Shown here piece by piece: positions 1,330-25,486 of a stretch of 64,000 nucleotides of DNA; positions within the stretch are counted from its first letter, which is position 1, and each line of letters starts with the position of its first letter. Below the pieces are notes generated by a model. That model made no database searches. It was not told where the DNA came from and was given only the letters and a program-made list of their open reading frames with translations. Source of the stretch: Nitrospirota bacterium. GTDB lineage: Bacteria; Nitrospirota; Thermodesulfovibrionia; Thermodesulfovibrionales; UBA6898. Made by a program: the position numbers and the translations under genes. The stretch covers positions 38,234-102,233 of the forward strand of contig JAJZPM010000005.1 of assembly GCA_021811105.1 (NCBI GenBank). The letters run 5' to 3'.

Positions 1330-1529
1330 GAAGGCCGGTCCTTGTTATGTCACCCTCTATTTAATTCAGGGTCTCGTCTATGCGGGGAGACAGTGATGCC
1401 GAACGACCCTGTCATGAGGAGATTCCGAACCAGGTTCAGGGTTAGCGTGACATAGAGCGACGGGACTGAAATTGTTTTAACATGTGAAATTGTGTTTAAA
1501 TAATACGTTATATAAGTCATATCTTTGAG

Positions 1530-4758: not shown

Positions 4759-4761
4759 TCG

Positions 4762-4860
4762 ATGAAGACATTTGATTATGAAATCCCTCCCAACCTCCCT
4801 TTGTAAAGGGAGGAAAGTTCCCCATCGTTGGCAAAGAGGGAAAGGGGGAGTTTTTTTTAT
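4762..4860 (+). repeat. Dispersed hairpin repeat, copy 1 (ATGAAGACATT..AAATCCCTCCCAACCTCCCTTTG-TAAAGGGAGG..GGGGGAGTTTTTTTT)
   Basis: Shares long identical blocks with 57576-57750 and 12650-12805. It contains the CCTCCCTTTGTAAAGGGAGG hairpin. Confidence 0.8.
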
Positions 4861-4886
4861 TATGTCATCATGCTGAAAGCTGACAG

Positions 4887-4901
4887 CTGAAAACTGATAG
4901 C
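4887..4901 (+). repeat. 15-mer CTGAWWACTGATAGC, copy 3 (ctgaaaactgatagc), 22 nt upstream of the ATG at 4923
   Basis: Direct reading. Confidence 0.85.
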
Positions 4902-4922
4902 CGATTAAGGAGGTCATTGCCT

Positions 4923-6419
4923 ATGTCCGAACAGCCATCAACCCCAATAAATAATTCCGAAGCCGAGCGCCATCGTCTCACCGAGGACGTGCTCAGATTT
5001 ATCGAGGCGGGGGTGGACTCCGAGGTCCCGGATTTTAATGACTACGCGCTCAGGATGTTCGCTCTTCACTATGAGGTGAATAGCATCTTCAGGGAGTTCT
5101 GTGACGCCAAGAAGGTGAAGCCGGGCGACATTAATCGCTGGGAAGATATCCCGATGGTCTACAACGACGTCTTCAAAACACATCTTGTCGCCTCGTTTCC
5201 TCTGGAAAAATCCGTAATGGCGTGTCTGACCGGCGGTACCACAAGCCTGACCCAGCGGGGCCGCATCTTCCGCGATGAAGACGGCAAACGGCTTGTCTTT
5301 TCGGCAAACAAGATGATGACCGGCTCGTACCTCTTCCCGGACTTCGAAGCCGGCGGGCGATGCCGCATTCTCGTCCTTGCGCCGAGTCCGGAAATGGCGC
5401 CTTCCATGGGTATGGCTATAGGCATAGACCAGACACGCCGCCATTTCGGTACGCCCGACAGCAAGTTTCTTCTGGGGAAGTCGGGCATCCATATCAATGA
5501 GCTTCTGAAGGCGCTGCGTGAGTCGGAGGCGAGCGGTGTCCCCGTGGCGCTGATAGGGGCCACGTCGGCCTATGTCTATTTCTTTCAGGCCTGCCGCCGC
5601 AAGAAGATGAAGTTCTGCCTGCCGCCCGGCAGCCGGATATGCGACGGCGGCGGGTATAGAGGGCGTTTTGGAAAGTTGACCCGAGCCGACTACTATGCTA
5701 TGGTGCAGGAGACGCTTGGCATACCCGGGAGCCACTGTGTAAACGTGCTCGGCGAGGCCGAGACGGCAACGAACCTCTTTGACGATTCCCTTCGCAGGAA
5801 GGTGAAGGGCCTGCCTTTTCGCGAGCGGTCGCGGCCGGTGCCGCCGTGGTGCAGGGTGCGGGCTATGAGCATAGATGATCTCAGCCCCCTTCCCGACGGC
5901 GAGATCGGGCTTCTTGCGCACTGGGACCTGGCCAATGTGCCGACCGTACTCGCAGTGATTACCGATAATCTCGGATACACGACTGACAATGGCAGGGGCT
6001 GCGAGATGGTGGGCAGGGCAAAGATCGAAAACGGCAAGGTCTCTCCGCTTCCTGACGAGACTGCCGGTAGTCCTATGGGCGACTCCATGATCTTCAGGAT
6101 GCTCGAACGGTATGTGAACTTTTCGATCGAGCTGAAGATGGCCATGGCCAAGAGCCCCGAAGTCGAGCCGAGCGTGCGCGAGGAGGTCGAAGCAAGGCCC
6201 GGATCTCTCCCCTCCTGTCCCCAGGTGGTGGACGAGATCCTCGTTTCGCAGCAGGAGGCCGAGGCGGCCGAGATGCGCGACGAGGCCCTCGGCGCGTTCA
6301 AGGACCAGACGGACCGGCCCCTTGAGTGGTTCGAAGAAGAGGCAAAGAAGCAGAAACTGGCTGACCACCCCGCAGGCCTCAAGTCGGAGAAGCCGGGTAA
6401 GAAGGAGGGGAAAAAATAG
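4923..6419 (+). CDS. LuxE/PaaK-like acyl-adenylate-forming enzyme (acyl-protein synthetase family) with a ~90-aa charged C-terminal tail
   Basis: AAGGAGG lies 9 nt before the ATG at 4923. The overall N-terminal pattern (FALHYE.N..FREFC...W.DIP.V....FK) and the LTGGTTS.TQRG P-loop-like motif resemble the LuxE family. Family assignment is from memory, not a search. Confidence 0.55.
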   Translation: MSEQPSTPINNSEAERHRLTEDVLRFIEAGVDSEVPDFNDYALRMFALHYEVNSIFREFCDAKKVKPGDINRWEDIPMVYNDVFKTHLVASFPLEKSVMACLTGGTTSLTQRGRIFRDEDGKRLVFSANKMMTGSYLFPDFEAGGRCRILVLAPSPEMAPSMGMAIGIDQTRRHFGTPDSKFLLGKSGIHINELLKALRESEASGVPVALIGATSAYVYFFQACRRKKMKFCLPPGSRICDGGGYRGRFGKLTRADYYAMVQETLGIPGSHCVNVLGEAETATNLFDDSLRRKVKGLPFRERSRPVPPWCRVRAMSIDDLSPLPDGEIGLLAHWDLANVPTVLAVITDNLGYTTDNGRGCEMVGRAKIENGKVSPLPDETAGSPMGDSMIFRMLERYVNFSIELKMAMAKSPEVEPSVREEVEARPGSLPSCPQVVDEILVSQQEAEAAEMRDEALGAFKDQTDRPLEWFEEEAKKQKLADHPAGLKSEKPGKKEGKK

Positions 6420-6559
6420 GAAAGAATGGAAACAGTCTCAAAGTTATTTCCTTGGTTATTCCGTGCCATGCTCCTGTGCGGTAAGAAATTGCGTTTTGGT
6501 AACCGTCCGGACCGGGTAACGGGCATTGACCTTTCCTCCGGCTTCTGTTATTTTCTTAC

Positions 6560-6832
6560 ATGCCTTTGAAATGTGCCGGGAATATCCTTCGACTGACTGC
6601 TGCGGTGATGCTGTTGTCGGTCACATCGCTATCGCTGTATGTCGACTTTCCGCGGGATGCCTCTTCGCTTGAAGTGAACGACGATTGTTTCGACTTTGAC
6701 GACCTGGAGTTGATCCCTCAAGTCTATCAGTTTGATGGGTCTTTCTTTCGGGGCATAAGAATGTCTCACGATTTTTTGTCCCCTGCCGATGAAGTTTTCA
6801 TCGCTTCAATTTTCAGACCTCCCGTAATGTAG
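6560..6832 (+). CDS. Hypothetical small protein with an N-terminal hydrophobic anchor and an acidic middle
   Basis: 90-aa ORF. TTGACC-17-TATTTT (6526-6554) ends 6 nt before the ATG, giving a leaderless-like arrangement. No family recognised. Confidence 0.3.
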   Translation: MPLKCAGNILRLTAAVMLLSVTSLSLYVDFPRDASSLEVNDDCFDFDDLELIPQVYQFDGSFFRGIRMSHDFLSPADEVFIASIFRPPVM

Positions 6833-6960
6833 CGTCCATTCTCCCTTCCCCAGAAAGCCTTTTTGGGCCTCATCTGAAGAGGGAGTATAGCGTCTTCATT
6901 TTATTGCATCGTCCGAAGACAGTTTGTCTGCAATGACGAACGAAGGAGGTTGACATTATT

Positions 6961-8367
6961 ATGGATTCGACAGCTGAAATACGCTACGAGCATGGAAGTC
7001 GTCAGACGACGTTTATTGAACCGGAATCCGGCGGGAATGCCAATACAAGCGGCAGTTCAGGAGGCATGAAGGTCACGCTCATATCTCCTGCCTTTCCTTT
7101 CTCGGGCCGCGTTCCAATGGTGCCGCCGGTGCTCGAATATCTCGGGGCGCTGACTTTGAAGGAGGCGCCCGACGCCGAAGTCACCCTCATCGATGCTAAC
7201 GTCAACGAGCCTGCTCCGGAGCAGATCGAAGCCGACCTTGTCGGCATCAGTGCAATGACTGCTACCGTCACCTGGGCCTATGCGTTCAGCGACGCGCTCA
7301 GGGGACTCGGCAAGAAGGTTGCGCTCGGCGGCATCCATCCCACTGCGCTTCCGCAGGAGGCGAAGGAGCATGCTGATGCGGTTGTGGTGGGGGAGGCGGA
7401 GTCCGTCTGGCGGCAGGTATTGAATGACGTCTCACGCGGGAACTTGAAGCCGTTTTATCATGGGGAACGGATTCCCCTTGATGGGCTGCCGCTGCCGCTT
7501 GCCGGCGCACTGAAAGGGCCATACCACTTCAGGGCCGTCTTTACGGCCCGTGGCTGCCCCTACCGGTGTTCATTCTGCTCGGTGAGAAAATTTTTCGGAG
7601 ATACCATCAGATACCGTCCGATCGACAGCGTGGCAGAGGAAGTCGAGAAATGCGCCGGCAAGGTTTATTTCAACGGGGACGACAATATATGGGGCGGAGA
7701 TATCAAGCGCTCGATCGAATTATTTACCGAACTGTCTCGCGGCTCGAAGAAATACTGGTACGGGTTCGGCGACCTTCGGGCGCCGCAGGGCAGAGAGGGG
7801 GAGAATATGTTGAAGGCGGCCCGGAAGAGCGGCCTCTTTTCCGTCTGGGCCGGATGGGAGACTTCGTCGAGCGAAGGCCTCAAGGGCTACCGGGCATCAG
7901 CAAAACAGGGGACGAACCGTGAGGAGGCGATCAGGCGCATTAAAGATCACGGGATCAATGTTACCCTCTTTGTCGTGCTCGGCGGTAGGAGCGACACGCG
8001 CGACGATTTCAACTATGCACTGGAGCTTTCGGAAAGGCTTGGCGTGGGCATTCATCCCGTGCTATTGACGCCTCTGCCCGGAACGGAACTGTATGATGAG
8101 TATAAACCCTACCTTTTCCGGGAGAAGGGATGGGACAATTACACCGGTGTCAATGCGGTGTTCGATCACCCTACGATGACGGCCCGGGAACGAGAGGAGG
8201 CCTTTTATCAGACCTCGCTTTCCCTTTTAAGCTGGAAGAGAATCTGGAAGCACCTCCTCGACACCCCGCGCGGGGGGTTCCCGATGAACCACCTGCTGTT
8301 GCTCATGGAGAAGGTCCCCATGAGGAGGGCGATGAGGAAGGCTTACAGGGGATGGTGTACTGCATAG
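6961..8367 (+). CDS. B12-binding-domain radical SAM protein (class B), paralogue 2
   Basis: FTARGCPYRCSFCSV, with long colinear similarity to 3415-4758 (GEAESVW..VL.D...G.LKPFY.G). GAAGGAGG lies upstream. Confidence 0.85.
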   Translation: MDSTAEIRYEHGSRQTTFIEPESGGNANTSGSSGGMKVTLISPAFPFSGRVPMVPPVLEYLGALTLKEAPDAEVTLIDANVNEPAPEQIEADLVGISAMTATVTWAYAFSDALRGLGKKVALGGIHPTALPQEAKEHADAVVVGEAESVWRQVLNDVSRGNLKPFYHGERIPLDGLPLPLAGALKGPYHFRAVFTARGCPYRCSFCSVRKFFGDTIRYRPIDSVAEEVEKCAGKVYFNGDDNIWGGDIKRSIELFTELSRGSKKYWYGFGDLRAPQGREGENMLKAARKSGLFSVWAGWETSSSEGLKGYRASAKQGTNREEAIRRIKDHGINVTLFVVLGGRSDTRDDFNYALELSERLGVGIHPVLLTPLPGTELYDEYKPYLFREKGWDNYTGVNAVFDHPTMTAREREEAFYQTSLSLLSWKRIWKHLLDTPRGGFPMNHLLLLMEKVPMRRAMRKAYRGWCTA

Positions 8368-8398
8368 GGGCCCCCATTTCCGGAAGGGGTATGCTATT

Positions 8399-8509
8399 AT
8401 GAAAAGTGATCTTCTATGGCGCTCTGCTACTGTATTTCAGTCCGAGGTTGCTGAAATGACCTGCGCTCATGGTTGCGGAAAATCTTCGGATGAAGGCCTG
8501 GACAAATGA
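8399..8509 (+). CDS. Candidate 36-aa sORF (MKSDLLWRSATVFQSEVAEMTCAHGCGKSSDEGLDK) with an ATGA overlap onto the next gene
   Basis: Found by hand translation. GGAAGGGG lies 9 nt upstream, and its TGA overlaps the ATG at 8506. It is below the ORF-track length cutoff. Confidence 0.25.
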   Translation: MKSDLLWRSATVFQSEVAEMTCAHGCGKSSDEGLDK

Positions 8510-16792: not shown

Positions 16793-17713
16793 GTGCCGAT
16801 ACCCCAAAAGAAGTTTGAGAGGCCCTTTCGTTTTCTCGCATCGAAAGAGCTGACGGCAGTCCTTCTGGTGGCCCTCTGTGCGGTCCTGATACCCCGGACA
16901 TTGAAAGAGACAGAGGAGATTACCGTAGGCGTACTGCCCCGCATCCTCTTCGGATGTCTCGCGATCAACCTTGTCTTCTGCACCGTAAAGAGGATCAGGT
17001 CTCTTTCAAATGCGGTCCTCGTGGTTCATGCCGGGGTATTTGTGACCCTTATTGGAGCGGTGATCAGTTCATTCGGATATGTCGCGACCGCGAACATCTA
17101 TGAGGGGACCTCGGTAGACAGCGCCTACCGGTGGGACGTGAAAAAAGAGGTCCCCCTCGGGTTCGACCTCACGGTGAAGAAGATCCACCTGCAATATTAT
17201 CCTGTGCCTGTCAAGGTGGGCGTGCTCAGGGGCGGTGAAAAGCATGCGCTCTTTGTCCTGAAGACAGGGGAGAGCTTCAGTCTCGACGGGTATACTGTAA
17301 GGGCCGATGAGCTGGTCTTTCCTTCAGAGGACCTGAGGCTGAGCGTGTTTCTCCGGGGACGCCTGATAGGGGAATCGGATACCGAAGGCATGCGGGACCT
17401 TCCGCCCGATTTTCCTTATGACTTCAAACTTGTCGCCTTCAAGGACCCTGCGCTGAAAGGTGCCTGGGTGGACATGACGATCTCGAAAGGCCCGAGCATA
17501 TTCAAAGAGGGGACTTCGGGCGTCAACAGTCCGTTGACATGGGAAAAACTTAATTTTTATAATACGTCGTCGGACGCGGACCGTTTCGGTAATCGTTTCG
17601 CGGGAATTCAGATAACGTACGACCCCGGCAAGCCGCTTGTCTATCTGGGGTTTGCGGTTATAGGTCTCGGATCCGGAATGTATTTCGTAAGGAAGGTGTA
17701 TGGATATCGGTAA
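16793..17713 (+). CDS. Second ResB-like membrane protein with no CcsA partner
   Basis: GTG start. FRFLASKELTAVLLVALCAVLIPRTL...LAINLVFCTVKRI resembles the ResB N-terminus, and there is a C-terminal TM segment. Confidence 0.5.
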   Translation: MPIPQKKFERPFRFLASKELTAVLLVALCAVLIPRTLKETEEITVGVLPRILFGCLAINLVFCTVKRIRSLSNAVLVVHAGVFVTLIGAVISSFGYVATANIYEGTSVDSAYRWDVKKEVPLGFDLTVKKIHLQYYPVPVKVGVLRGGEKHALFVLKTGESFSLDGYTVRADELVFPSEDLRLSVFLRGRLIGESDTEGMRDLPPDFPYDFKLVAFKDPALKGAWVDMTISKGPSIFKEGTSGVNSPLTWEKLNFYNTSSDADRFGNRFAGIQITYDPGKPLVYLGFAVIGLGSGMYFVRKVYGYR

Positions 17714-18638
17714 TCCCGAAGCGGCTTATCGAGGGTGGTCTGTGACGCGGCGGCATCTTGTTGCGTTGCTTCTACTTTTTTCCCTTCTTTCCTGCAGCGC
17801 TCCTTCCGCGAAGCAGGAGAAAAAGACCTACCGTATCGGCTATATGATCTGCAACAGCGAGCAGGAGACGCTTCACCGGTTCAGGCCGCTCACCGCATAT
17901 CTGTCAAAGAAGCTCGGCGTAAAATTCGACATGGTCGCGATAGACACCGTGGACTTCGTAAAGCAGGTCGATACACTCGATTTCACCCACACCAACTCGC
18001 TGCTCTATATCATCATGAACAGAAACCACGGGGTAGACGTTCTTGCCGCGGAAAAGTCCGGGCCACTCGGCGCAAGGTCGCAGGGCGTCATCATTGCACT
18101 GAAGAAGAGCGGTCTGAAGAGTATCGGGGACCTGAAGGGAAAGACGATGCTTTTCGGTCCTTCTCTCGGCCCGACTGCGTATATGTCTCAGCTGGACCTG
18201 CTGATCAAGAGGGGAGTAAACCCCGAGAACGACCTTGCGTTTTATTCCATCCCCGCGGGTTCCTTCAAGCATGAGAAGGTCATCTACGGTGTCTTGTTCG
18301 GTAAATATGACGCCGGAGCCGTGCCCATGACCGACTTCGAGAGAATGGCGGAGGACGGCCGGATCGACCGTAACGACTTCACTGTGATCGCGGAAGGGCA
18401 GCCGATTCCCTATTGTACGTTCGGCGTGACGCAGAGGGTCGACGACGGGCTCGCGCAGAAGGTCAAAAAAGCGCTCCTGGACCTCAGGAAGGACGATACC
18501 GTCGAGGTCGACGGTCAGGGCGTGCGGGTGCTGGAACAGGCGAACGTGGACGGTTATGAAGATATCAAAGATCGCGATTACGACAGTGTGCGCGACATGG
18601 CGAAGAGAACGAACATGCCGCCCTATCAGAGGTATTGA
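17700..18638 (+). CDS. PhnD-like (phosphonate/phosphite-type) periplasmic substrate-binding protein
   Basis: YRIGYMICNSEQETLHRFRPLTAYLSKKLGV.F......D...FV......DF.H.N and GKYDAGAVP motifs. It overlaps the previous gene by 14 nt. Confidence 0.65.
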   Translation: MDIGNPEAAYRGWSVTRRHLVALLLLFSLLSCSAPSAKQEKKTYRIGYMICNSEQETLHRFRPLTAYLSKKLGVKFDMVAIDTVDFVKQVDTLDFTHTNSLLYIIMNRNHGVDVLAAEKSGPLGARSQGVIIALKKSGLKSIGDLKGKTMLFGPSLGPTAYMSQLDLLIKRGVNPENDLAFYSIPAGSFKHEKVIYGVLFGKYDAGAVPMTDFERMAEDGRIDRNDFTVIAEGQPIPYCTFGVTQRVDDGLAQKVKKALLDLRKDDTVEVDGQGVRVLEQANVDGYEDIKDRDYDSVRDMAKRTNMPPYQRY

Positions 18639-19165
18639 TGGACCGGCTTGACAGGATCTCTATATGGGCGATCGTGATTCTCATCATCAGCTCTTTTGCG
18701 CTGATAAGCGGACACACGGGGGAAGCGAGGCCGGATCGGGGTCCGCAGCAGAGGGCCGCGGTTTCGAATGCCGCCGCGAGCAGCGGCGGGATAGCGGGGA
18801 GAATGAAGCTGGCGAGAAATCTTATGGAAGCGGGGAATCTGGTCAAGGCCGAAGTTCTTGTCCGCGACCTGATACAGAACTACCCGTACGAGGGTGAACC
18901 GCGTATGGTCATGGGTGATATCTGCATGAGGAGACAGGACCCGGTCAGGGGCATGCTCGAATATAAGGAAGCGATCGACCTGAATCCTGATTATCTCGAC
19001 AAGAAGACCCCTCTTTTTCAGGGGAAGAAGCTGAAGGTTGCGGTGAGGGAGGCGCTGGCGGAGATCGACGAGGGCCTCCGGCAAAACCCCGCGGATGAAT
19101 CGCTGAAGAAGGACAGAAAGACACTCTACTACCTGCAGAGGAGGATTGCGGGAAGCTGCTCCTGA
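18638..19165 (+). CDS. TPR-repeat protein with an N-terminal membrane anchor
   Basis: ARNLMEAGNLVKAEVLVRDLIQNYPYEGEPRMVMGDICMRRQDPVRGMLEYKEAIDLNPDY. The ATG overlaps the previous stop (TGATG). Confidence 0.6.
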   Translation: MDRLDRISIWAIVILIISSFALISGHTGEARPDRGPQQRAAVSNAAASSGGIAGRMKLARNLMEAGNLVKAEVLVRDLIQNYPYEGEPRMVMGDICMRRQDPVRGMLEYKEAIDLNPDYLDKKTPLFQGKKLKVAVREALAEIDEGLRQNPADESLKKDRKTLYYLQRRIAGSCS

Positions 19166-19194
19166 GGGAGCGGTAATTATCCCTCCGTAAATAT

Positions 19195-20367
19195 ATGAAA
19201 GCGCCGAAAGAGATACAGAATGGACCGGCGGGTCCGGCTTCGATGGCCGGGCAGCCCTGTTATCCTAAGTACCTCTTTCTCCTCGCAGGGGCTGTAATCG
19301 GCCTCGGCGGGGTCATGCTCAGTTATTACGGGAATCCGGCCAATACGGGCTTTTGCGTATCGTGCTTTATGGAGAATATCGCCGGGGCGATCGGCCTTCA
19401 CGGAAATATCCGGATGCAATACCTGAGGCCGGAGATCATCGGGTTTGTGATCGGTTCTTTCTTAATGTCGGTCTCCAGGAGGGAATTTGCCGCCACGGGA
19501 GGAAGCTCCCCCCTGCTTCGGTATCTTGTGGGTATCCTCCTGATTATCGGCTGCGCAGTGTTTATGGGATGTCCTATCAAGATGGTATTGAGGATCGCGG
19601 CCGGGGACCTCACAGCATGGATCGGGGTCGCAGGGCTTGCCGCAGGGGTCTATATCGGTCTGAAATTTCTCGAAAACGGCTTCAGCCTTGGAAAGGCGGG
19701 CCGGGTGCCGCAGGCAAACGGTCTTCTGATACCGGTTTTCATGGCGCTTCTCCTCGCTGCTCTCCTTTGGAAACCGGCGTTTATCTCGATAAGCACGAAA
19801 GGCGCGGGCGCTCAGTATGCGCCTCTCGCCCTCTCCCTCCTGGCAGGACTCGCGGTCGGCGCGCTTGGGCAGAGGACCGGCTTCTGCATAACCGGAGGGT
19901 TGTCGAGAATCTTCCTCTGGGGGCCGCGCGAATTTACCTCCTGTCCGAAAACGACCGGTCTGGCGGTCGGCATCGCCTCGTTCTTCGGGTTTGCACTGGT
20001 TGCGAGCCTTCTGACCGGTCAATTTTCGCTTGGCTGGCATGGTCAGCCGAGTTCGAATGATAGCCATGTCTGGAATTTTCTCGGGATGCTCGTCGTCGGT
20101 TTCGGTTCCGTGCTGATCAAGGGCTGCCCCTTCAGACAGCTGGTTTCCGCAGGTCAGGGAGACACCGATGCCGGGGCCGCGGTGCTCGGGATGCTGACCG
20201 GCGCCGCGCTTGTACAGGACTGGGGGCTTGGAGGCACCGCAGCCGGAACTCCGTACGAAGGTCAGGTTGCCGTGCTCGTCGGTTTCTGCGCCCTGCTGAT
20301 AATCGGGCTCCTGTACCGGAAACGGGGCGAAACATTTGCCCCTGAATTTCAGGCGGGTCTCGATTAA
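19195..20367 (+). CDS. YedE/FdhT-family (selenium/sulfur-compound transporter-like) membrane protein
   Basis: About 10 TM helices. NTGFCVSCFMENIAGAIGLHG and RTGFCITGGLSRI are the paired conserved Cys motifs I associate with the YedE family. Assignment is from memory. Confidence 0.65.
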   Translation: MKAPKEIQNGPAGPASMAGQPCYPKYLFLLAGAVIGLGGVMLSYYGNPANTGFCVSCFMENIAGAIGLHGNIRMQYLRPEIIGFVIGSFLMSVSRREFAATGGSSPLLRYLVGILLIIGCAVFMGCPIKMVLRIAAGDLTAWIGVAGLAAGVYIGLKFLENGFSLGKAGRVPQANGLLIPVFMALLLAALLWKPAFISISTKGAGAQYAPLALSLLAGLAVGALGQRTGFCITGGLSRIFLWGPREFTSCPKTTGLAVGIASFFGFALVASLLTGQFSLGWHGQPSSNDSHVWNFLGMLVVGFGSVLIKGCPFRQLVSAGQGDTDAGAAVLGMLTGAALVQDWGLGGTAAGTPYEGQVAVLVGFCALLIIGLLYRKRGETFAPEFQAGLD

Positions 20368-20382
20368 CGTGAGACGGATGAG

Positions 20383-22299
20383 ATGCAGCTGAAAATAGCC
20401 GGTATGAAGAGGACCGAAGAGTGCCAGGTTCACGGGGCCCCTTCCAGGGCCGCCAATAAGACGCTTTTTTTCATGGTACTCGCCTCCCTTTCGCTGATAA
20501 TCTGGCATGTCTGGAGCTATGGACCGACCGGACAGACGGCGAACCCAGCATTGCCCGGAAGGCCGTTCCCCGTCTTGCTGGGAAGCGAGATATGGGACTT
20601 GCTGTTCAATCGTCACGGTATCCTTGCGGAACTGTGGGATGTGTTTCCGTACTTCATCGTCGGTATACTCCTGGCCGGATATTTACGCACCTACAAGATC
20701 GCGATGAAGCTCCAGGCAAGCCTCAGGAGGTACGGCGTCCTGAGCGTCTTCCTGGCATCTTTCGTCGGCATTCTGACACCGCTCTGTGCGTGCGGCACCC
20801 TGACTACCGCGGTAAGCCTCTTGTTTGCCGGCCTGCCGCTTGCGCCGGTGATGTCCCTGTTGGTGACTTCACCACTTCTGAGTCCCTCGGCCTATCTGCT
20901 CACCCTCAACGACCTCGGACCTGAATGGACGGTGATCAGGACTATCGCGGCGTTATCAATGGGCATTTTCGCCGGCCTGATCACCCATTTTCTCAGGGAC
21001 AGGGGGTTTCAGACAAATACTATATTTATTGAAGGCGCGGTTCCAAGGGGTGACTTCCACGATGAGGCATATCCCGATGCACGGCTGAAATGCAACTGCA
21101 AGGAGAAGTTCGGCCACAGGGTGGCGGCAAGGACGGACAACATGTTCGTCATCTTCCTTGCAAAGTCGTCCGAGATGCTCTGGCTGGTGGGGAAGTACGT
21201 CCTTGTCGGGGTTGCGATAGGGAGCATAGTCGAACGGTACATGCCCTATGAATGGATATACAGGCTGTTCGGACAAAAGGACGCGCTTAACATCGTATGG
21301 GTTACCCTGGGTTCGGTCCCAATTTTTCTTCATCAGATCAGCGCCTCGAGCATCCTCTATCATATAAAGAGCTCCCTGCACGGTACGCTCGACGGAGGGG
21401 CGGCGCTCGCTTTCATGATAGGCGGCCCGGTTACCGCGGTCCCGACCATGGTGATGTTCTGGACGATATTCAAAAAAAGGGTCTTTTTTCTCTATCTGTT
21501 CGTCTGTCTCGCGGGAACGATTCTCATCTCCTATGCGTTTCAGTTCTTTGTGTTCGTTCCGTATGCGGACATGGGCAATCCTCTTCTGAAAAACGTAGCT
21601 GCGATATCCGGAGGGAGTTCGGCCGCTATTACCAAACGGGACGAGCATGTGCGGATCGTAATGGACCCGGGCGGCAAAAGCATCATCGCGACCTGTACAA
21701 ACGACGTTGATGGACAGGGAGGCATTGTCTTTGACGGTGGCTTTCCCCGTTTTCTAAACGGTTCGGCCGACAAGTACGACAACCTGAGATATATCGGGAA
21801 CGTCGCTCAATGGCTGGAACAAAGCAATACTTCGCCGGCAAAGAAGAGTATCCTCATCTACGATACGTTGCATGCCTCGGGACCGGCAAAAGAAGCATTC
21901 AGCAGGAGCGCCGTTACGCTCCTCGAGAAAAAGGGTTTTACGGTAAGGATCACGGACAGGAAGGAGACCCCTGAGATCTCTGAAGGGTTGCTTGGTGGAT
22001 ACGGACAGCTCTGGATGATCTTTGGAGAGTCTGCTCCCGGAAAGTATCTTTCCGATGCCGAACTGGAGACGATTTCGCAGTTTTCCGGCGACGGGAAGGG
22101 CATGCTGATCGTGGCAGGGAAGCGCGGGTCGGACCCGTATGACCTTTCCGCGGCAAATCAGCTGTCTTCCCGTTACGGCGTGCTTTTCTCCGGCTCTGTT
22201 GAAAATGGAGAGGAAATTCCCACTGCCGCGGCGTCCTATTTCTTCAACAGGGCGTCGGTGATTCTCGGGAAGGTCTTGAAACTTGTGCATAAAGCGTGA
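20383..22299 (+). CDS. COG0701/ArsP-type permease (CxC motif) fused to a ~230-aa soluble C-terminal domain of unknown function
   Basis: FIVGILLAGYLRTY...LTPLCACGTLTTAV is typical of the 'predicted permease' family. Residues from about 400 to 638 are hydrophilic (GNVAQWLEQS...ILIYDTLHASG...LWMIFGES...GKGMLIVAG). Confidence 0.65.
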   Translation: MQLKIAGMKRTEECQVHGAPSRAANKTLFFMVLASLSLIIWHVWSYGPTGQTANPALPGRPFPVLLGSEIWDLLFNRHGILAELWDVFPYFIVGILLAGYLRTYKIAMKLQASLRRYGVLSVFLASFVGILTPLCACGTLTTAVSLLFAGLPLAPVMSLLVTSPLLSPSAYLLTLNDLGPEWTVIRTIAALSMGIFAGLITHFLRDRGFQTNTIFIEGAVPRGDFHDEAYPDARLKCNCKEKFGHRVAARTDNMFVIFLAKSSEMLWLVGKYVLVGVAIGSIVERYMPYEWIYRLFGQKDALNIVWVTLGSVPIFLHQISASSILYHIKSSLHGTLDGGAALAFMIGGPVTAVPTMVMFWTIFKKRVFFLYLFVCLAGTILISYAFQFFVFVPYADMGNPLLKNVAAISGGSSAAITKRDEHVRIVMDPGGKSIIATCTNDVDGQGGIVFDGGFPRFLNGSADKYDNLRYIGNVAQWLEQSNTSPAKKSILIYDTLHASGPAKEAFSRSAVTLLEKKGFTVRITDRKETPEISEGLLGGYGQLWMIFGESAPGKYLSDAELETISQFSGDGKGMLIVAGKRGSDPYDLSAANQLSSRYGVLFSGSVENGEEIPTAAASYFFNRASVILGKVLKLVHKA

Positions 22300-22342
22300 A
22301 AAGGTTCGCGCAGGAAATAACTATCAAGAATCGAGGGGGACT

Positions 22343-22663
22343 ATGAAAACAACGATCCTGGATATTCAGAGGCTCAAGAAGTTCAGCGATGAAAAGCGCC
22401 ACCAGGAGACGATATGGACGGACGAACATTCGAAGATAAACCTGCTCTGCATGAAGCCGGGACAGGAGATTGTTACCCACACCCACCACGGAAACCATAT
22501 GTGGGTAGTCATCGAGGGCAAGGGAGAATTCCGCTCAGGCAAGGAGACGCAGGTCATCGAGAGCGGAAAGATCGTGATTGTCCCCCCTCTCGTGGACCAC
22601 GGGATACGGAATGCGTCGAACGAAAATCTTGTAATTGCGTCTATCACGGCGCACGGCGACTGA
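22343..22663 (+). CDS. Cupin-domain protein
   Basis: MKPGQEIVTHTHHGNHMWVVIEGKGEF...VIVPPLVDHGIRN matches cupin motifs 1 and 2. The start is taken at MKTTIL. Confidence 0.8.
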   Translation: MKTTILDIQRLKKFSDEKRHQETIWTDEHSKINLLCMKPGQEIVTHTHHGNHMWVVIEGKGEFRSGKETQVIESGKIVIVPPLVDHGIRNASNENLVIASITAHGD

Positions 22664-22692
22664 CAAGTAATACCTAAAAGGGCGTGAGTGGA

Positions 22693-23001
22693 ATGAAGAT
22701 ATTCAGAAATCCTGATGCGAAGTGGCGGGAAGAGGACAAGTTCAGGGAAAAGGCATACGAAGGACTCGGCAAGGGACAGGACGTCTCCGGTATCGGGACC
22801 TCGATAATCCTTCATTCCGGCAAGATGCATTCTTTCAATCTTCTCGGCACCGAGATATGGAAATTGTGTGACGGCAGGACCGTGGAAGAAATCGTCTCGG
22901 AGTTGAAAGAAAAATTCGAGGTGGACGAAGAGACCTTGCGGAGCGATGTCGACGCTTTTTTGGAGCATCTGAAGGAGGAAGGACTTGTCCATGAAAAATA
23001 G
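22693..23001 (+). CDS. PqqD-like (RRE-type) peptide-chaperone family protein
   Basis: SFNLLGTEIWKLCDGRTVEEIVSELKEKFEVDEETLRSDVDAFLEHLKEEGLV is the classical PqqD pattern. Confidence 0.75.
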   Translation: MKIFRNPDAKWREEDKFREKAYEGLGKGQDVSGIGTSIILHSGKMHSFNLLGTEIWKLCDGRTVEEIVSELKEKFEVDEETLRSDVDAFLEHLKEEGLVHEK

Positions 23002-23998
23002 TTTGATTCCCGCCGCGCCACTTACCGTAAACTGGGCGGTCACGAACCGGTGTAATTTCAAGTGCGGTCACTGTTACAGCAGGGCCGATGTGAGCGAAGA
23101 ACTCGGCTTCGATATGGTCAGCGCAATAGTCGAAAAATTGGCCGCCGCGAAGGTCTTCTCGGTGAACTTCGGGGGGGGAGAGCCCCTTTTGAGAAGAGAC
23201 CTGACAGATATCGCGCGGTTCGCGGCGGACCGCGGCCTTGCGGTCTCGATGAACAGCAACGGGTTTCTGATCGACCGGGACATGGCCCGGCGACTCAAGG
23301 AGGCCGGGTTCGGCAAGGTGGGTATCAGCATCGACAGCCCTAAACCCGAAGTCCACGACCGGTTCAGGGGCATTCAGGGGAGCCATGGAAGGGCGCGGGC
23401 AGCCCTGGGTCACCTGAAAGACGCAGGTATCGAGACCTCGATTTCATCGGTGATCTGCAAGATCAATATCGACGATATCGAAGGGCTTGTCGGCATGGCG
23501 CGCGCGACGGGTGTGTCCAATATCAATTTTCATAATTTCAAGTGCTCGGGCCTTGGTTTTACCAACAAGGACGTTCTTGATCTCAGCCCTGAAGAGTGGA
23601 GGGACTTTTATATCAAGGCGATCGCGCTGAAGGACACGGTAAAGGGACTAAGCATATCCCTCGAAGACCCGATCATCGCCCTGCTCGGCCATAAGAGCAG
23701 CGACTCGCTCGTGAAGGGGAGCGTCTGCGGAAAACTCTCCCTGAATATAAAATCGAACGGGGATATCACGCCGTGCGGCTTTATTCCTATCGTGGTCGGC
23801 AACATCTGCAGAGACGATCTGATCGAGGTTTGGGACAACTCACCGGTCCTCGGCATGATGCGGAACAAGGTGCCGAAGGGGAAATGCCTGAGCTGCAAGA
23901 GCCATTCCGAATGTCTCGGTGGCTGTACCGCCAGGACCCTTGCCCTCACCGGCGACATGAACAACCCCGATCCCCATTGCTGGAGAAATGAATCTTAG
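22991..23998 (+). CDS. Radical SAM/SPASM-domain protein
   Basis: NWAVTNRCNFKCGHCY (CxxxCxxC). SPASM pattern CGKLSLNIKSNGDITPCG...GKCLSCKSHSECLGGCTARTL. It overlaps the PqqD-like gene. Confidence 0.85.
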   Translation: MKNSLIPAAPLTVNWAVTNRCNFKCGHCYSRADVSEELGFDMVSAIVEKLAAAKVFSVNFGGGEPLLRRDLTDIARFAADRGLAVSMNSNGFLIDRDMARRLKEAGFGKVGISIDSPKPEVHDRFRGIQGSHGRARAALGHLKDAGIETSISSVICKINIDDIEGLVGMARATGVSNINFHNFKCSGLGFTNKDVLDLSPEEWRDFYIKAIALKDTVKGLSISLEDPIIALLGHKSSDSLVKGSVCGKLSLNIKSNGDITPCGFIPIVVGNICRDDLIEVWDNSPVLGMMRNKVPKGKCLSCKSHSECLGGCTARTLALTGDMNNPDPHCWRNES

Positions 23999-24890
23999 AG
24001 AATTACCCTCGCCTCTCAGGATATACTGGGACCTGCCGGAGGCCACGCCTGACCCGGCCCTTTGCCGGAGGGTCTGCGAAGAGATCATCGCGACAAAGAT
24101 GTTGTTCCTCAGCCTGCGTGATTCCGGTTCCCCGGTGGGCTGTTCCTGCCGGGAGATCCTCTACGCACTGAATGGGGGCAGTATCGGCATATCGCTGACG
24201 GTCCCGGGGGCTGTGGCGACCCCTTCTTTTCTTGGCGGACTGTCGGGTTCTGCTGTGGCGACCCTGCTTATCGATACCTCTTCATTGAGTGAGGTTCGCT
24301 CTTTTTTTGAAAAGTGGGGACCTTACGGGCAGGGGGGACTGACGCCAGGCGTCTCGTTCGCCAACAGCAGGCAGAATTACCGGGAGATTCCCGGAGTGGT
24401 TTCCTTCTGCCTGCAGCAGGGAATTCATGATCTCGTCTTCCCCATCCAGAGACTTGGGACGGAGGGGGCCGCGTACCTGGAGCATGAGAGGGGAGATGAA
24501 CTTGCTGTGAAATTGCGGGCAATGGATTATCGTTCGTTGCGGATTACGATACATGATCCTTTCTTATGGCAGATATTTTATCCTGAAGCCGATTATCACG
24601 AAGGGGGATGCCAGGCGGCCAACAGCATGCTTTACCTTTCCCCGGATTACAAGGTCTATCCCTGTCCCGCAATGCCCCTGGAACTCGGCGACCTGCGTGA
24701 AACGACGCTCGGGGAGATAATCAATTCCGGGAAGAAACAAGCGCTGCGACGGTCCCTCCTGGTTCCGCCGGTTGAATGCGCTCTCTGCCCGCAGGCGGAC
24801 AAATGCCTGGGGGGGTGCAGGGGGAGGGCGCTTGCGTCAGCCGGCTCTTTGGACCGGCGCGATCCTGCGTGCGGGTGTATTTTATCGTGA
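23988..24890 (+). CDS. SPASM-domain paralogue lacking the radical SAM CxxxCxxC motif (pseudo-rSAM)
   Basis: The N-terminus PLRIYWDLPEATPDPALCRRVCEEI stands where CxxxCxxC is expected. The C-terminal GGCQAANSMLYLSPDYKVYPCP...ECALCPQADKCLGGCRGRALA is an intact SPASM pattern. It overlaps the previous gene by 11 nt. Confidence 0.7.
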   Translation: MNLRELPSPLRIYWDLPEATPDPALCRRVCEEIIATKMLFLSLRDSGSPVGCSCREILYALNGGSIGISLTVPGAVATPSFLGGLSGSAVATLLIDTSSLSEVRSFFEKWGPYGQGGLTPGVSFANSRQNYREIPGVVSFCLQQGIHDLVFPIQRLGTEGAAYLEHERGDELAVKLRAMDYRSLRITIHDPFLWQIFYPEADYHEGGCQAANSMLYLSPDYKVYPCPAMPLELGDLRETTLGEIINSGKKQALRRSLLVPPVECALCPQADKCLGGCRGRALASAGSLDRRDPACGCILS

Positions 24891-25057
24891 CGCCCGGCGC
24901 ATGCCAGGGCCTGCGGTACGGTTTCTGCATCGGTTGATGACCTTCCGGTAACCTTTAGGAGATGCTTTTTACTGTTCATTTGCCTGTGCAGAACCGTTCC
25001 TTACCCCACCCTGAAGGGTTACAGATTTTTTAAAACCCGCTGTGGTAAAATGCTTAT

Positions 25058-25486
25058 GTGGTAGAAGAAATCGGCGTCGTCAAGAGCGTGCAGGGGATGT
25101 CCGCCATGGTCCAGATCCCCAAAAAGAGCGCCTGCGAAGGGTGCACGATGGGCATCTGCAAGCCCGAAGAGCAGGGCATGGAGATCGAGGCTTTCAACGA
25201 GGTCGGCGCGAAGGTCGGCCAGAAGGTCAGGGTGGCCATCAAGTCATACGCCTATATGAAGGGCACTATGGTGGTCTACGGGTTGCCCGCGATCATGCTT
25301 GTGGCAGGCGCCGTATTCGGCAAGGAAGTCATGAGCAGGGTATTCCCTGGGAGCGACCCTGATATCCTCTCCGCCATTTTCGGGTTCGCTGCGTTTATCC
25401 TTTCCTTTGTCATCGTAAAGTTCTGGTCCGGCCGGGCGAGTCGGAAGACCGAGTCCAGACCCGTAATCGAAGAGATACTGAATTAA
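25058..25486 (+). CDS. RseC/MucC-family (SoxR-reducing-system) membrane protein
   Basis: GVVKSVQGMSAMVQIPKKSACEGCTMG.C followed by two TM helices. GTG start. Confidence 0.7.
   Translation: MVEEIGVVKSVQGMSAMVQIPKKSACEGCTMGICKPEEQGMEIEAFNEVGAKVGQKVRVAIKSYAYMKGTMVVYGLPAIMLVAGAVFGKEVMSRVFPGSDPDILSAIFGFAAFILSFVIVKFWSGRASRKTESRPVIEEILN

What the first reader, a model, noticed from the sequence alone, without database searches (positions are those of the whole stretch)
22343..24890. Cupin / PqqD-like / rSAM-SPASM / pseudo-rSAM operon with no visible precursor, directly after YedE and a CxC permease
Seen in sequence:
- Four tightly packed genes, the last three overlapping one another by about 11 nt.
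- They encode a 106-aa cupin (THTHHGNHMW...H), a PqqD-like protein, a radical SAM/SPASM enzyme (NRCNFKCGHCY; CLSCKSHSECLGGC) and a SPASM paralogue.
- They follow a YedE-type transporter gene and a permease-fusion gene on the same strand with short gaps.

Established knowledge: a PqqD-like RRE paired with an rSAM/SPASM enzyme is the hallmark of peptide-derived cofactor or RiPP pathways (PQQ, mycofactocin, sactipeptides). Those pathways need a small precursor gene.

I found no convincing precursor ORF between 22300 and 25058.

Inference: the substrate may be encoded elsewhere, it may be one of the adjacent proteins, or this may be a cofactor-type pathway coupled to Se/S or metal import. I cannot match this gene set to a named system.
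Basis: partly seen in the sequence, partly recalled or inferred. Interest (0 to 1): 0.66.

Follow-up and report, generated by a model that had tools for sequence, protein, structure and literature searches.

The report
Orphan radical-SAM peptide system, candidate precursor found
The four genes are the named but never characterised "GeoRSP" radical-SAM system, and a conserved 20-residue peptide gene 12 kb upstream in the same 13-gene cluster is probably its missing substrate, which makes the system testable.

Summary
The last three are the NCBIfam/TIGRFAMs "GeoRSP system": a PqqD-family chaperone, a radical SAM/SPASM enzyme, and a SPASM paralogue without the SAM cluster. The system has a name but no known function, and I found no paper on it.

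It is not next to YedE and the CxC permease by chance. Across 172 related loci from Nitrospirota and Geobacterales, the block belongs to a conserved cluster of about 13 genes (window 11721-24890). The gene modules change order between lineages but stay linked.

A conserved small gene lies at 10819-10881 and encodes MKKLTYVRPKVVGTASVHPC.
- There are 70 copies in 59 loci.
- All 55 copies inspected have a ribosome-binding site, and variation is mostly at third codon positions.
- Most copies are followed by a hairpin.
- It matches no Pfam or NCBIfam family.

I propose it is the GeoRSP substrate, modified at the invariant C-terminal His-Pro-Cys. This is inferred from genome context only. The peptide gene sits beside genes for periplasmic proteins, not beside the maturase, and is visible in 32 of 59 well-covered GeoRSP loci.

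Some loci point to nickel: a flanking NikR regulator, a NicO-type transporter in place of the permease, and a NikMNQO transporter.

The parts
10735..10763 (+). Promoter-like site (TCGCCA-17-TATAAT) about 55 nt upstream of the small peptide gene
   Evidence: Consensus scan, 10 of 12 matches. This is a consensus match only and has not been shown to function.
10819..10881 (+). Small gene for a 20-aa peptide, MKKLTYVRPKVVGTASVHPC, plus its stop codon. It is the candidate GeoRSP precursor.
   Evidence: A profile of this peptide separates cleanly from noise: 26 hits at E<=4e-9, and the next hit is at E>5. There are 70 copies in 59 loci. All 55 copies inspected have a Shine-Dalgarno sequence, weaker in the window's copy, and differences are concentrated at codon position 3. 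It matches no Pfam or NCBIfam family. All 26 database hits are unnamed or 'hypothetical'.
10882..10951 (+). Strong stem-loop followed by a T run, directly after the peptide gene (terminator or attenuator-like)
   Evidence: Sequence read. Folding energy is -35.5 kcal/mol with z = -5.5. A comparable hairpin (z < -2) follows 41 of 55 copies.
11721..12599 (+). Secreted protein with CarboxypepD_reg domains (weak DUF4198 match), called CPR2 in this report. It is the most frequent neighbour of the peptide gene together with the NosD-like gene.
   Evidence: Pfam. Conserved in related loci. 59 of 70 peptide copies lie within 400 nt of a NosD-like or CPR gene.
12824..15418 (+). Secreted 864-aa right-handed beta-helix protein (NosD-like)
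   Evidence: Pfam Beta_helix and NosD. Orthologues are 43-52% identical across phyla. Conserved position in the cluster.
15415..16125 (+). Secreted CarboxypepD_reg-domain protein, called CPR1 in this report
   Evidence: Pfam. Its start overlaps the end of the NosD-like gene by 4 nt in most loci.
16203..16781 (+). Small OpuAC-like lipoprotein (half-size substrate-binding fold)
   Evidence: Pfam OpuAC. Invariant lipobox cysteine. Syntenic.
16793..17713 (+). ResB-like membrane protein
   Evidence: Pfam ResB. Syntenic in about 60 genome loci.
17700..18638 (+). PhnD-like lipoprotein substrate-binding protein with two further invariant cysteines. No ABC transporter partner genes are nearby.
   Evidence: Pfam Phosphonate-bd, 160 bits. 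Cysteine columns. It moves together with the TPR and YedE genes as one module.
18635..19165 (+). Membrane-anchored TPR protein with an invariant cysteine one residue before the C-terminus (AGxCx-COOH)
   Evidence: Pfam TPR. The cysteine column is conserved in all 55 sequences. Its gene abuts or overlaps the YedE gene.
19195..20367 (+). YedE-family putative selenium transporter
   Evidence: TIGR04112 scores 386 bits against a cut-off of 200. Six invariant cysteines.
20383..22299 (+). ArsP_1-type permease with CxC and CxC/His motifs, fused to a C-terminal domain of about 240 aa with unknown function
   Evidence: Pfam ArsP_1 scores 128 bits. Related to the SO_0444 and SaoE metal efflux families, but below their cut-offs. 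Invariant C14, C135/C137 and C237/C239. The C-terminal domain matches no Pfam family and only weakly matches IFT52 in the PDB (E 0.033). In other loci it is replaced by a NicO-like or MFS transporter.
22343..22663 (+). 106-aa single-domain cupin whose motifs suggest a four-histidine metal site
   Evidence: Pfam Cupin_2. Conserved tHtHhg.H and dHG motifs. The closest solved structures are small cupins of unknown function.
22684..23001 (+). GeoRSP PqqD-family peptide-recognition protein
   Evidence: TIGR04302 scores 129.8 bits against a cut-off of 100. Pfam PqqD scores 77 bits.
22985..23998 (+). GeoRSP radical SAM/SPASM enzyme (probable start at ATG 22991)
   Evidence: TIGR04303 scores 545 bits against a cut-off of 400. 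Has CX3CX2C and SPASM cysteines. Orthologues are 57-98% identical. The closest solved structure is PqqE, 6c8v, E 4e-22.
23988..24890 (+). GeoRSP SPASM-domain paralogue without the SAM-cleaving cluster
   Evidence: TIGR04304 is the best hit, full length, 277.9 bits, just under the cut-off of 300. All SPASM cysteines are invariant and there is no CX3CX2C.
9129..10607 (+). BchE-like B12-binding radical SAM gene directly upstream of the peptide gene. It may be an accessory to the system.
   Evidence: Pfam and NCBIfam. A 57%-identical homologue sits directly upstream of the peptide gene in Geobacter locus L080 as well, but it is present in only 3 other loci.

Best explanation
The cupin, PqqD, rSAM/SPASM and SPASM-only genes form the cytoplasmic maturation module of a conserved cluster of about 13 genes (window 11721-24890, plus a small gene at 10819-10881).

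Shown:
- The last three genes are the GeoRSP cassette.
- The whole cluster is conserved in Nitrospirota and Geobacterales.
- A translated, conserved gene for a 19-21-aa peptide (consensus MKKxKYVxPRIVGSAxVHPC) belongs to the same cluster.

Inferred:
1. The peptide is the missing substrate.
2. Its N-terminal half is bound by the PqqD-type protein.
3. The rSAM enzyme cleaves SAM and uses the resulting radical to modify the invariant C-terminal His-Pro-Cys.
4. My best guess for the chemistry is a mycofactocin-type oxidative decarboxylation of the C-terminal cysteine, or a cysteine-derived crosslink.
5. The SPASM-only paralogue supplies auxiliary iron-sulfur clusters or substrate binding.
6. The cupin, whose motifs suggest a four-histidine site, tailors the product or loads it with metal.
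7. The adjacent transporter (the ArsP_1 CxC permease here, NicO-like or MFS elsewhere) moves the product or its metal across the membrane.
8. The product then works with the secreted beta-helix, CarboxypepD_reg and binding-protein components and the PhnD-TPR-YedE module, in handling a soft metal (nickel is the best lead) and/or sulfur or selenium.
For: GeoRSP membership:
- TIGR04302 scores 129.8 (cut-off 100), TIGR04303 scores 545 (cut-off 400), and TIGR04304 scores 277.9 (cut-off 300).
- Public annotation names the close homologues GeoRSP.

Cluster conservation and linkage:
- 80 genome loci, all with Nitrospirota or Geobacterales/Desulfuromonadales-type names, show modules that are rearranged but stay linked.
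- 80 metagenome loci centred on the NosD-like gene show the same cluster.

The peptide gene is real:
- The profile separates hits from noise cleanly.
- All 55 copies inspected (51 distinct sequences) have a ribosome-binding site, and differences are biased to codon position 3: 14886 against 5244 and 6204 at positions 1 and 2.
- A hairpin (z < -2) follows 41 of 55 copies.

The peptide gene is linked to GeoRSP:
- 38 loci show both. In these, 35 of 43 peptide copies are on the same strand as the rSAM gene and upstream of it.
- Look-ups that started from the peptide alone recovered the full cluster with GeoRSP in 3 of 6 cases, and the start of the cluster (contig cut short) in a fourth.
- Apart from the conserved cupin and GeoRSP proteins (and an FmdE-like protein in some loci), the cluster proteins look secreted or membrane-bound, judged from visible signal peptides, lipoboxes and transmembrane segments.

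The enzyme resembles peptide-modifying enzymes:
- The closest solved structures are PqqE, SkfB and SuiB.
- MftC is the best-scoring peptide-modifying family.

Nickel leads:
- NikR (224 bits, cut-off 105) flanks one or the other end of the cluster in 12 loci.
- A NicO-like transporter replaces the permease in 13 loci.
- NikMNQO lies beside the peptide gene in L080, and a NikM-like gene lies beside it in L100.
Against: - There is no biochemical or structural evidence that the peptide binds the PqqD protein.
- The peptide gene lies 5.7-14 kb from the rSAM gene, beside genes for periplasmic proteins. RiPP precursors usually sit beside their maturase.
- Only 32 of 59 GeoRSP loci with at least 1.5 kb visible upstream of the NosD-like gene show the peptide.
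- Three loci (L100, L150, L154) have the peptide with no GeoRSP in view.
- Compact loci with only the permease, cupin and GeoRSP genes (L036, L043, L055) have no peptide within 10 kb.
- No leader peptidase was seen in the cluster.
- The nickel signals are confined to Geobacterales loci and are absent from the window.
- A candidate NikR operator motif taken from L100 recurred in only one other place in the roughly 2.3 Mb of sequence held at that point.
- YedE points to selenium or sulfur rather than nickel.
- The enzyme's best-scoring characterised families by profile are the heme enzymes AhbD and NirJ2, though both score far below their cut-offs.
Confidence: 0.5

Rival explanations
1. GeoRSP acts on something other than the small peptide. 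Candidates are a tail of a cluster protein, such as the invariant AGxCx C-terminus of the TPR protein, or a small molecule or metal species brought in by the transporters. On this reading the 20-aa peptide is an independent small protein or a regulatory leader for the NosD-like and CPR genes.
For: - 59 of 70 peptide copies lie within 400 nt of NosD-like or CPR genes, often 43-97 nt upstream of the NosD-like gene. The unit peptide-NosD-CPR is repeated in tandem.
- A hairpin follows the ORF, as in attenuators.
- 27 of 59 well-covered GeoRSP loci lack the peptide in view.
- The TPR C-terminal cysteine is invariant.
Against: - The peptide gene is not always upstream of a gene on the same strand, as seen in the window, L016, L062, L075, L080 and L100. 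That argues against a purely cis-acting leader.
- The whole 20-residue sequence is conserved across two phyla, not just a few stalling residues.
- The PqqD family is known for binding peptides, and no other conserved small ORF was found.
- The cupin and permease are dispensable, so they cannot be the substrate.
- The TPR protein may be periplasmic.
Confidence: 0.25
2. The rSAM pair builds a sulfur- or selenium-containing cofactor or carrier. YedE, with the PhnD-like and TPR proteins, imports the chalcogen. The peptide's or the TPR protein's terminal cysteine carries it. The system has nothing specifically to do with nickel.
For: - YedE belongs to the selenium-associated family TIGR04112 (386 bits).
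- The PhnD-like protein weakly resembles a putative selenate-binding protein, TIGR04553.
- PhnD-TPR-YedE stays linked to GeoRSP despite rearrangements.
- A simpler cluster type keeps NosD-CPR-TPR-YedE, which suggests that this is the core.
Against: - There is no SelD, SelA or other selenium gene in the cluster.
- There is no selenocysteine recoding of the peptide's stop codon: TGA 44, TAA 11, TAG 3, with no conserved read-through frame.
- Compact GeoRSP loci lack YedE within 10 kb.
- SPASM enzymes are not known as sulfur or selenium inserters (established knowledge, not tested here).
Confidence: 0.1
3. The enzyme pair modifies a tetrapyrrole (heme-type chemistry, like AhbC/AhbD or NirJ1/NirJ2), and the ResB-like protein handles the product.
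For: - The best-scoring characterised families are AhbD (181.6 bits) and NirJ2 (173 bits).
- A pseudo-SAM/SPASM family linked to that pathway also scores.
- A ResB-like gene lies in the cluster, and a BchE-like B12 rSAM gene lies nearby.
Against: - All these scores are far below the family cut-offs of 500-650.
- A dedicated PqqD-family protein is translationally coupled to the enzyme.
- The closest solved structures are peptide-modifying enzymes.
- No other tetrapyrrole biosynthesis genes are in the cluster.
Confidence: 0.07

Closest known systems
GeoRSP system (NCBIfam/TIGRFAMs TIGR04302, TIGR04303, TIGR04304)
   Same: It is the same three-gene cassette in the same order. Two of the three proteins score above the curated cut-offs, and the third is a full-length best hit. 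Public annotation names the close homologues GeoRSP.
   Different: The family definition covers only the three proteins and gives no function or substrate. The 13-gene context, the candidate precursor and the metal signals are not part of it. No paper in the searchable library mentions it.
Mycofactocin maturation (MftA peptide, MftB PqqD-type chaperone, MftC rSAM/SPASM)
   Same: Both have a short precursor with an invariant C-terminal motif, a separate PqqD-type chaperone and an rSAM/SPASM enzyme. MftC is the best-scoring peptide-modifying family (156.9 bits).
   Different: The score is below the MftC cut-off of 265. The peptide ends in His-Pro-Cys rather than Gly-Val-Tyr. There are no MftD, MftE or MftF genes. 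There is an extra SPASM-only paralogue. The precursor is encoded far from the maturase.
PQQ biosynthesis (PqqA, PqqD, PqqE)
   Same: Both have a precursor of about 20 aa, a PqqD protein and an rSAM/SPASM enzyme. PqqE is the closest solved structure. The PQQ product is used by periplasmic proteins (established knowledge).
   Different: PqqE scores 123 against a cut-off of 381, and PqqD scores 42.9 against 46. No PqqB or PqqC was seen among the cluster's Pfam and NCBIfam matches. The invariant residues of the peptide include no glutamate, so a PqqA-type Glu...Tyr motif is not apparent.
Methanobactin-type peptide metallophore operons
   Same: Both combine a small ribosomal peptide whose cysteines are key with cytoplasmic maturation, a dedicated membrane transporter and periplasmic binding proteins in one metal-related cluster (established knowledge, used as an analogy).
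   Different: The maturation enzymes are of a different class (MbnBC there, rSAM/SPASM here). There is no TonB-dependent receptor. The metal link here rests only on neighbouring NikR, NicO and NikMNQO genes in some loci.
NosDFY accessory system of nitrous oxide reductase
   Same: Both have a secreted NosD-type beta-helix protein paired with a membrane transporter. In Nos, this pair is thought to supply a sulfur or metal species to the periplasm (established knowledge).
   Different: There are no NosZ, NosF, NosY or NosL genes. The NosD family model scores 24 bits against a cut-off of 300.

Membership tests
GeoRSP system (NCBIfam) | PqqD-family protein scoring above the TIGR04302 cut-off | tested here: met
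   129.8 bits against a cut-off of 100, matched over the full length.
GeoRSP system (NCBIfam) | Radical SAM/SPASM protein scoring above the TIGR04303 cut-off, with CX3CX2C and SPASM cysteines | tested here: met
   545.2 bits against a cut-off of 400. CNFKCGHC and CLSCKSHSECLGGC are present.
GeoRSP system (NCBIfam) | SPASM-domain protein without a radical SAM cluster, scoring above the TIGR04304 cut-off | tested here: inconclusive
   It is the best hit and matches over the full length (5-295 of 300 aa), but scores 277.9 bits against a cut-off of 300. The SPASM cysteines are invariant and there is no CX3CX2C.
GeoRSP system (NCBIfam) | The three genes are adjacent and on the same strand | tested here: met
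   The genes overlap by 11 nt. The same order is seen in nearly all of the 80 genome loci; L022 lacks the third gene.
RRE-dependent rSAM/SPASM peptide maturation (RiPP or peptide-derived cofactor) | A ribosomally made precursor peptide encoded with the maturase | tested here: inconclusive
   A conserved 20-aa gene lies in the same cluster. However, it is 5.7-14 kb from the maturase, is seen in 32 of 59 well-covered loci, and has no biochemical link to the maturase.
RRE-dependent rSAM/SPASM peptide maturation (RiPP or peptide-derived cofactor) | A peptide-recognition element of the PqqD type | tested here: met
   Pfam PqqD scores 77 bits and TIGR04302 scores 130 bits.
RRE-dependent rSAM/SPASM peptide maturation (RiPP or peptide-derived cofactor) | The PqqD protein binds the peptide and the enzyme modifies it | not testable with these tools
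   This needs binding assays and mass spectrometry.
Heme / heme d1 rSAM enzymes (AhbC, AhbD, NirJ) | Score above the family cut-off | tested here: not met
   AhbD 181.6 against 500, NirJ2 173 against 500, NirJ 152.7 against 515, AhbC 149.8 against 650.
PQQ biosynthesis | PqqE and PqqD above their cut-offs, with PqqB and PqqC present | tested here: not met
   PqqE scores 123.4 against 381, and PqqD scores 42.9 against 46. No PqqB or PqqC domains were found among the cluster proteins.
Mycofactocin | MftC above its cut-off, and a precursor ending in Gly-Val-Tyr | tested here: not met
   MftC scores 156.9 against 265. The peptide ends in His-Pro-Cys.
YedE family putative selenium transporter (TIGR04112) | Score above the cut-off | tested here: met
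   386.2 bits against a cut-off of 200.
NikR-controlled nickel homeostasis genes | A NikR regulator or operator associated with the cluster | tested here: inconclusive
   A NikR gene (224 bits against 105) flanks the cluster in 12 Geobacterales loci. It is absent from the window, and no shared operator motif was found.

The most novel reading that the evidence does not exclude
GeoRSP converts a 20-residue peptide ending in His-Pro-Cys into an exported, metal-binding peptide product: either a ribosomal-peptide nickelophore or a peptide-derived cofactor for the secreted beta-helix proteins. The product would work in the periplasm of iron- and sulfate-reducing anaerobes under NikR control. That would be a new class of radical-SAM peptide product and the first peptide-based nickel carrier.
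Probability: 0.25. Interest if true: 0.85.

Novelty: new variant of a known kind. Interest (0 to 1): 0.68.

Why it matters
GeoRSP is a curated family with a name but no substrate, no known function and no literature that I could find. Three results turn it into a set of direct experiments:
- a concrete candidate precursor;
- the finding that the cassette is part of a conserved 13-gene cluster in two phyla;
- transporter swaps and NikR neighbours that point to metal handling.

The organisms concerned, Geobacterales and Thermodesulfovibrionia-type Nitrospirota, are central to metal and sulfur cycling in sediments and aquifers. A new peptide-derived cofactor or metal carrier in them would be of wide interest. 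The case also shows that precursor searches limited to the flanks of the maturase can miss the substrate.

Tried and rejected
1. Small ORFs inside 22200-25100 and in the 80-256-nt cupin-PqqD gaps of other loci. Nothing is conserved there; the gaps hold unrelated repeat-like sequence.
2. The cupin or the permease as substrate. Rejected, because both are replaced by NicO-like or MFS transporters plus a short NosD-like protein in about 12 loci that keep GeoRSP.
3. Selenocysteine read-through of the peptide's TGA stop, with the hairpin acting as the insertion signal. Rejected: 14 of 58 distinct copies end in TAA or TAG, and no downstream frame is conserved.
4. The peptide as a lipoprotein signal peptide. 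Rejected, because the cysteine is the last residue and the middle segment is charged.
5. The peptide as a purely cis-acting leader ORF. Unlikely, because several copies have no downstream gene on the same strand.
6. A shared NikR operator. A candidate motif taken from L100 recurred in only one other place in the roughly 2.3 Mb of sequence held at that point. Two pattern searches failed on syntax.
7. Riboswitches or other known RNAs in the window and four loci: none.
8. A known family for the peptide: none in NCBIfam or Pfam.
9. RseC and EF-G downstream as part of the system. They are not conserved neighbours.
10. Literature on GeoRSP, on TIGR04302-04304, or on SPASM + PqqD + Geobacter: nothing found.

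Full report

Yes. The + strand carries four genes:
- a 106-aa cupin (22343-22663);
- a 105-aa PqqD-family protein (22684-23001);
- a radical SAM/SPASM enzyme (22985-23998);
- a 300-aa SPASM paralogue (23988-24890).

The identical database protein for the enzyme is 335 aa, so its start is probably ATG 22991. With that start, the last three genes overlap by 11 nt each. Pfam confirms Cupin_2, PqqD, Radical_SAM + SPASM, and SPASM alone.

The paralogue aligns with the enzyme over 270 residues (23% identity, E 2e-15). It lacks the N-terminal segment that carries CX3CX2C. All its SPASM cysteines are invariant in 71 orthologues.

YedE and a 638-aa ArsP_1 permease fusion with a CxC motif lie directly upstream.

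**2. What the four genes are**

The last three are the three families of the NCBIfam/TIGRFAMs "GeoRSP system":

| Family | Score (bits) | Cut-off |
|---|---|---|
| TIGR04302 | 129.8 | 100 |
| TIGR04303 | 545.2 | 400 |
| TIGR04304 | 277.9 (full-length best hit) | 300 |

Public annotation already names the close homologues "GeoRSP system radical SAM/SPASM protein".

The name carries no function. No paper in the searchable library mentions GeoRSP or these accession numbers.

The enzyme is not a heme-pathway member. AhbD scores 181.6 and NirJ2 scores 173, both against cut-offs of 500. Its closest solved structures are peptide-modifying enzymes: PqqE (E 4e-22, full length), then SkfB and SuiB.

**3. 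The surroundings are part of the system**

A scan of one genome per species found 112 loci that encode a relative of the enzyme. The best 80 all come from Nitrospirota or Geobacterales/Desulfuromonadales-type records. Mapping the window's proteins onto them shows a much larger conserved unit.

In the window the unit runs from 11721 to 24890:
- CarboxypepD_reg protein (CPR2);
- NosD-like beta-helix protein;
- second CarboxypepD_reg protein (CPR1);
- OpuAC-like lipoprotein;
- ResB-like membrane protein;
- PhnD-like binding protein;
- TPR protein;
- YedE;
- ArsP_1 permease fusion;
- cupin;
- PqqD, rSAM and SPASM.

Nitrospirota keep this order. Geobacterales place PhnD-TPR-YedE after the SPASM gene, sometimes inverted or a few kb away. 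The modules are rearranged but stay linked, which is good evidence of a functional connection.

RseC and EF-G, downstream in the window, are not conserved neighbours.

In about a dozen loci the permease and cupin are replaced:
- by a NicO/RcnA-like histidine-rich transporter, a periplasmic TPR protein and a short NosD-like protein; or
- by a short NosD-like protein and an MFS transporter.

Three loci carry only the permease (or its separated C-terminal domain), the cupin and GeoRSP.

**4. The missing precursor**

Nothing conserved lies inside 22200-25100, nor in the longer cupin-PqqD gaps of other loci.

Clustering of small ORFs across the loci did turn up a family ending in ...VHPC. A regular-expression search and then a profile search gave 26 hits at E<=4e-9, with the next hit at E>5.

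The window copy is at 10819-10881 and encodes MKKLTYVRPKVVGTASVHPC.
- A promoter-like site precedes it (10735-10763), along with a purine-rich ribosome-binding site.
- A strong hairpin and a T run follow it (-35.5 kcal/mol, z -5.5).

A toxin-antitoxin pair (11109-11668) appears to have inserted between the peptide gene and CPR2.

Over all loci held, there are 70 copies in 59 loci.
- All 55 copies inspected (51 distinct sequences) have a Shine-Dalgarno sequence.
- Differences concentrate at the third codon position: 14886 against 5244 and 6204.
- 41 of 55 are followed by a hairpin with z < -2.

This is a translated gene under purifying selection. It matches no Pfam or NCBIfam family. All 26 hits in 5.8 billion database proteins are unnamed or "hypothetical".

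**5. Is the peptide the GeoRSP substrate?**

This is an inference.

For:
- It is the only conserved small ORF found in the cluster.
- In the 38 loci that show both, 35 of 43 copies are on the same strand as the rSAM gene and upstream of it. Often the peptide gene is the first gene of one uninterrupted gene string.
- Look-ups that started from the peptide alone recovered the full cluster with GeoRSP in 3 of 6 cases. A fourth recovered the start of the cluster on a contig that was cut short.
- Some loci carry two slightly different copies, as is common for peptide natural-product precursors.
- The conserved cluster proteins that look cytoplasmic are the cupin and GeoRSP, plus an FmdE-like protein in some loci.
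- Six simpler clusters that lack GeoRSP also lack the peptide.

Against:
- The gene sits beside NosD-like or CPR genes (59 of 70 copies within 400 nt) and 5.7-14 kb from the maturase.
- Only 32 of 59 well-covered GeoRSP loci show it.
- L100, L150 and L154 have the peptide with no GeoRSP in view.
- One look-up found the peptide and a CPR2-like gene alone among housekeeping genes.

A purely cis-acting leader ORF is unlikely, because several copies have no downstream gene on the same strand. Selenocysteine read-through of the stop codon is rejected.

**6. Likely mechanism**

*Shown:* a PqqD-type recognition protein translationally coupled to an rSAM/SPASM enzyme with all cluster ligands, and a paralogue that keeps only the auxiliary-cluster domain.

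*Inferred:* the PqqD protein binds the conserved N-terminal half of the peptide (K2, Y6, P9, V12, G13). The enzyme then abstracts a hydrogen atom near the invariant V17-H18-P19-C20.

The chemistry is my guess only. MftC is the best-scoring peptide-modifying family and acts on a C-terminal residue, so I favour oxidative decarboxylation of the terminal cysteine or a cysteine-derived crosslink.

The cupin's conserved motifs suggest a four-histidine site, so it would tailor the product or load it with metal. The adjacent transporter would move the product or its metal. Its interchangeable type (CxC permease, NicO-like or MFS) fits a small metal-associated cargo.

**7. What it is for**

This is the weakest part.

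Nickel is the best lead:
- NikR (224 bits against a cut-off of 105) flanks one or the other end of the cluster in 12 Geobacterales loci. In four of them it is divergent from the NosD-to-GeoRSP operon and on the same strand as CPR2 and the peptide gene.
- A NicO-like transporter replaces the permease in 13 loci.
- NikMNQO lies beside the peptide gene in L080, and a NikM-like gene lies beside it in L100.
- The CPR proteins give faint DUF4198 matches.

None of this is present in the window, and no shared NikR operator was found.

YedE instead points to selenium or sulfur (TIGR04112, 386 bits).

Three features fit soft-metal or chalcogen handling (the ArsP-type CxC inference follows bioRxiv 10.1101/2022.07.06.499078):
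- the invariant cysteine tail of the TPR protein;
- the two invariant cysteines of the PhnD-like protein;
- the cysteine and histidine motifs of the permease.

**8. Comparison and verdict**

The system works like the mycofactocin and PQQ pathways: a short peptide, a PqqD-type chaperone and an rSAM/SPASM enzyme. It fails the membership tests for both, and for the heme enzymes. It is a member of GeoRSP.

The new elements are:
- the candidate precursor family;
- the 13-gene two-phylum cluster;
- the transporter swaps;
- the nickel-regulator neighbours.

I rate it a new variant of a known kind. My confidence is about 0.95 that it is GeoRSP within a conserved cluster, about 0.5 that the peptide is the substrate, and about 0.25 for an exported nickel-related peptide product.

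Noticed in passing
window 11109-11668: A MazE/AbrB-type antitoxin gene and a small toxin-like ORF that I read as RelE/ParE-type sit between the small peptide gene and the first cluster gene (CPR2). They look like an insertion. Only the antitoxin was checked against Pfam.
   Followed up: partly
window 3415-10607; L080 18851-20365; L046 and L051 about 16100-19400: Three B12-binding radical SAM genes and a LuxE-like acyl-protein synthetase lie upstream of the peptide gene. A 57%-identical homologue of the BchE-like one (9129-10607) again lies directly upstream of the peptide gene in Geobacter locus L080. L046 and L051 have two of these genes next to NikR.
   Followed up: partly
window 18635-19165: The TPR protein encoded just before YedE has an invariant cysteine one residue before its C-terminus (AGxCx) in all 55 orthologues aligned. 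It could be a sulfur or selenium acceptor, taking the place of the missing YedF partner.
   Followed up: partly
window 17700-18638: The PhnD-like lipoprotein has two invariant cysteines besides the lipobox cysteine (C51 and C239). No ABC permease or ATPase genes are nearby. It always moves together with the TPR and YedE genes.
   Followed up: partly
L072 11938-12498 and 20 other Geobacterales loci: A gene for an FmdE-domain protein with a DksA/TraR zinc finger sits between the SPASM gene and the PhnD-like gene in 21 loci. It is absent from the window.
   Followed up: partly
L036 8526-9164: The C-terminal domain of the permease fusion, of unknown function, occurs as a separate 212-aa protein next to the cupin and GeoRSP genes. 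The domain, not only the permease, seems tied to the cassette. It matches no Pfam family and only weakly matches IFT52 in the PDB (E 0.033).
   Followed up: partly
L131, L138, L140, L141, L143, L152: A simpler cluster type (CPR2, NosD-like, CPR1, TPR, YedE, short NosD-like, and an MFS transporter where the contig reaches that far) lacks the OpuAC-like, ResB-like, PhnD-like and GeoRSP genes and the peptide gene. It may be the ancestral core.
   Followed up: partly
window 271-2360: A second ResB-like gene and a CcsA-type cytochrome c assembly gene lie at the start of the window. They are separate from the ResB-like gene inside the cluster.
   Followed up: no
L011, L022, L029, L065, L076, L078 (cupin-PqqD gaps): A GC-rich repeat-like element, whose translation reads ...PLPxGERVxxRG..., fills the gap between the cupin and PqqD genes in several unrelated loci.
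   Followed up: no
L040 14926-18261; L137 6438-9563; L163 13601-19495; L167 1-10001: Very large multiheme cytochrome genes lie next to the cluster or the peptide gene in several Geobacterales loci. In L167 the peptide gene starts at the stop codon of a 1650-aa cytochrome gene.
   Followed up: no
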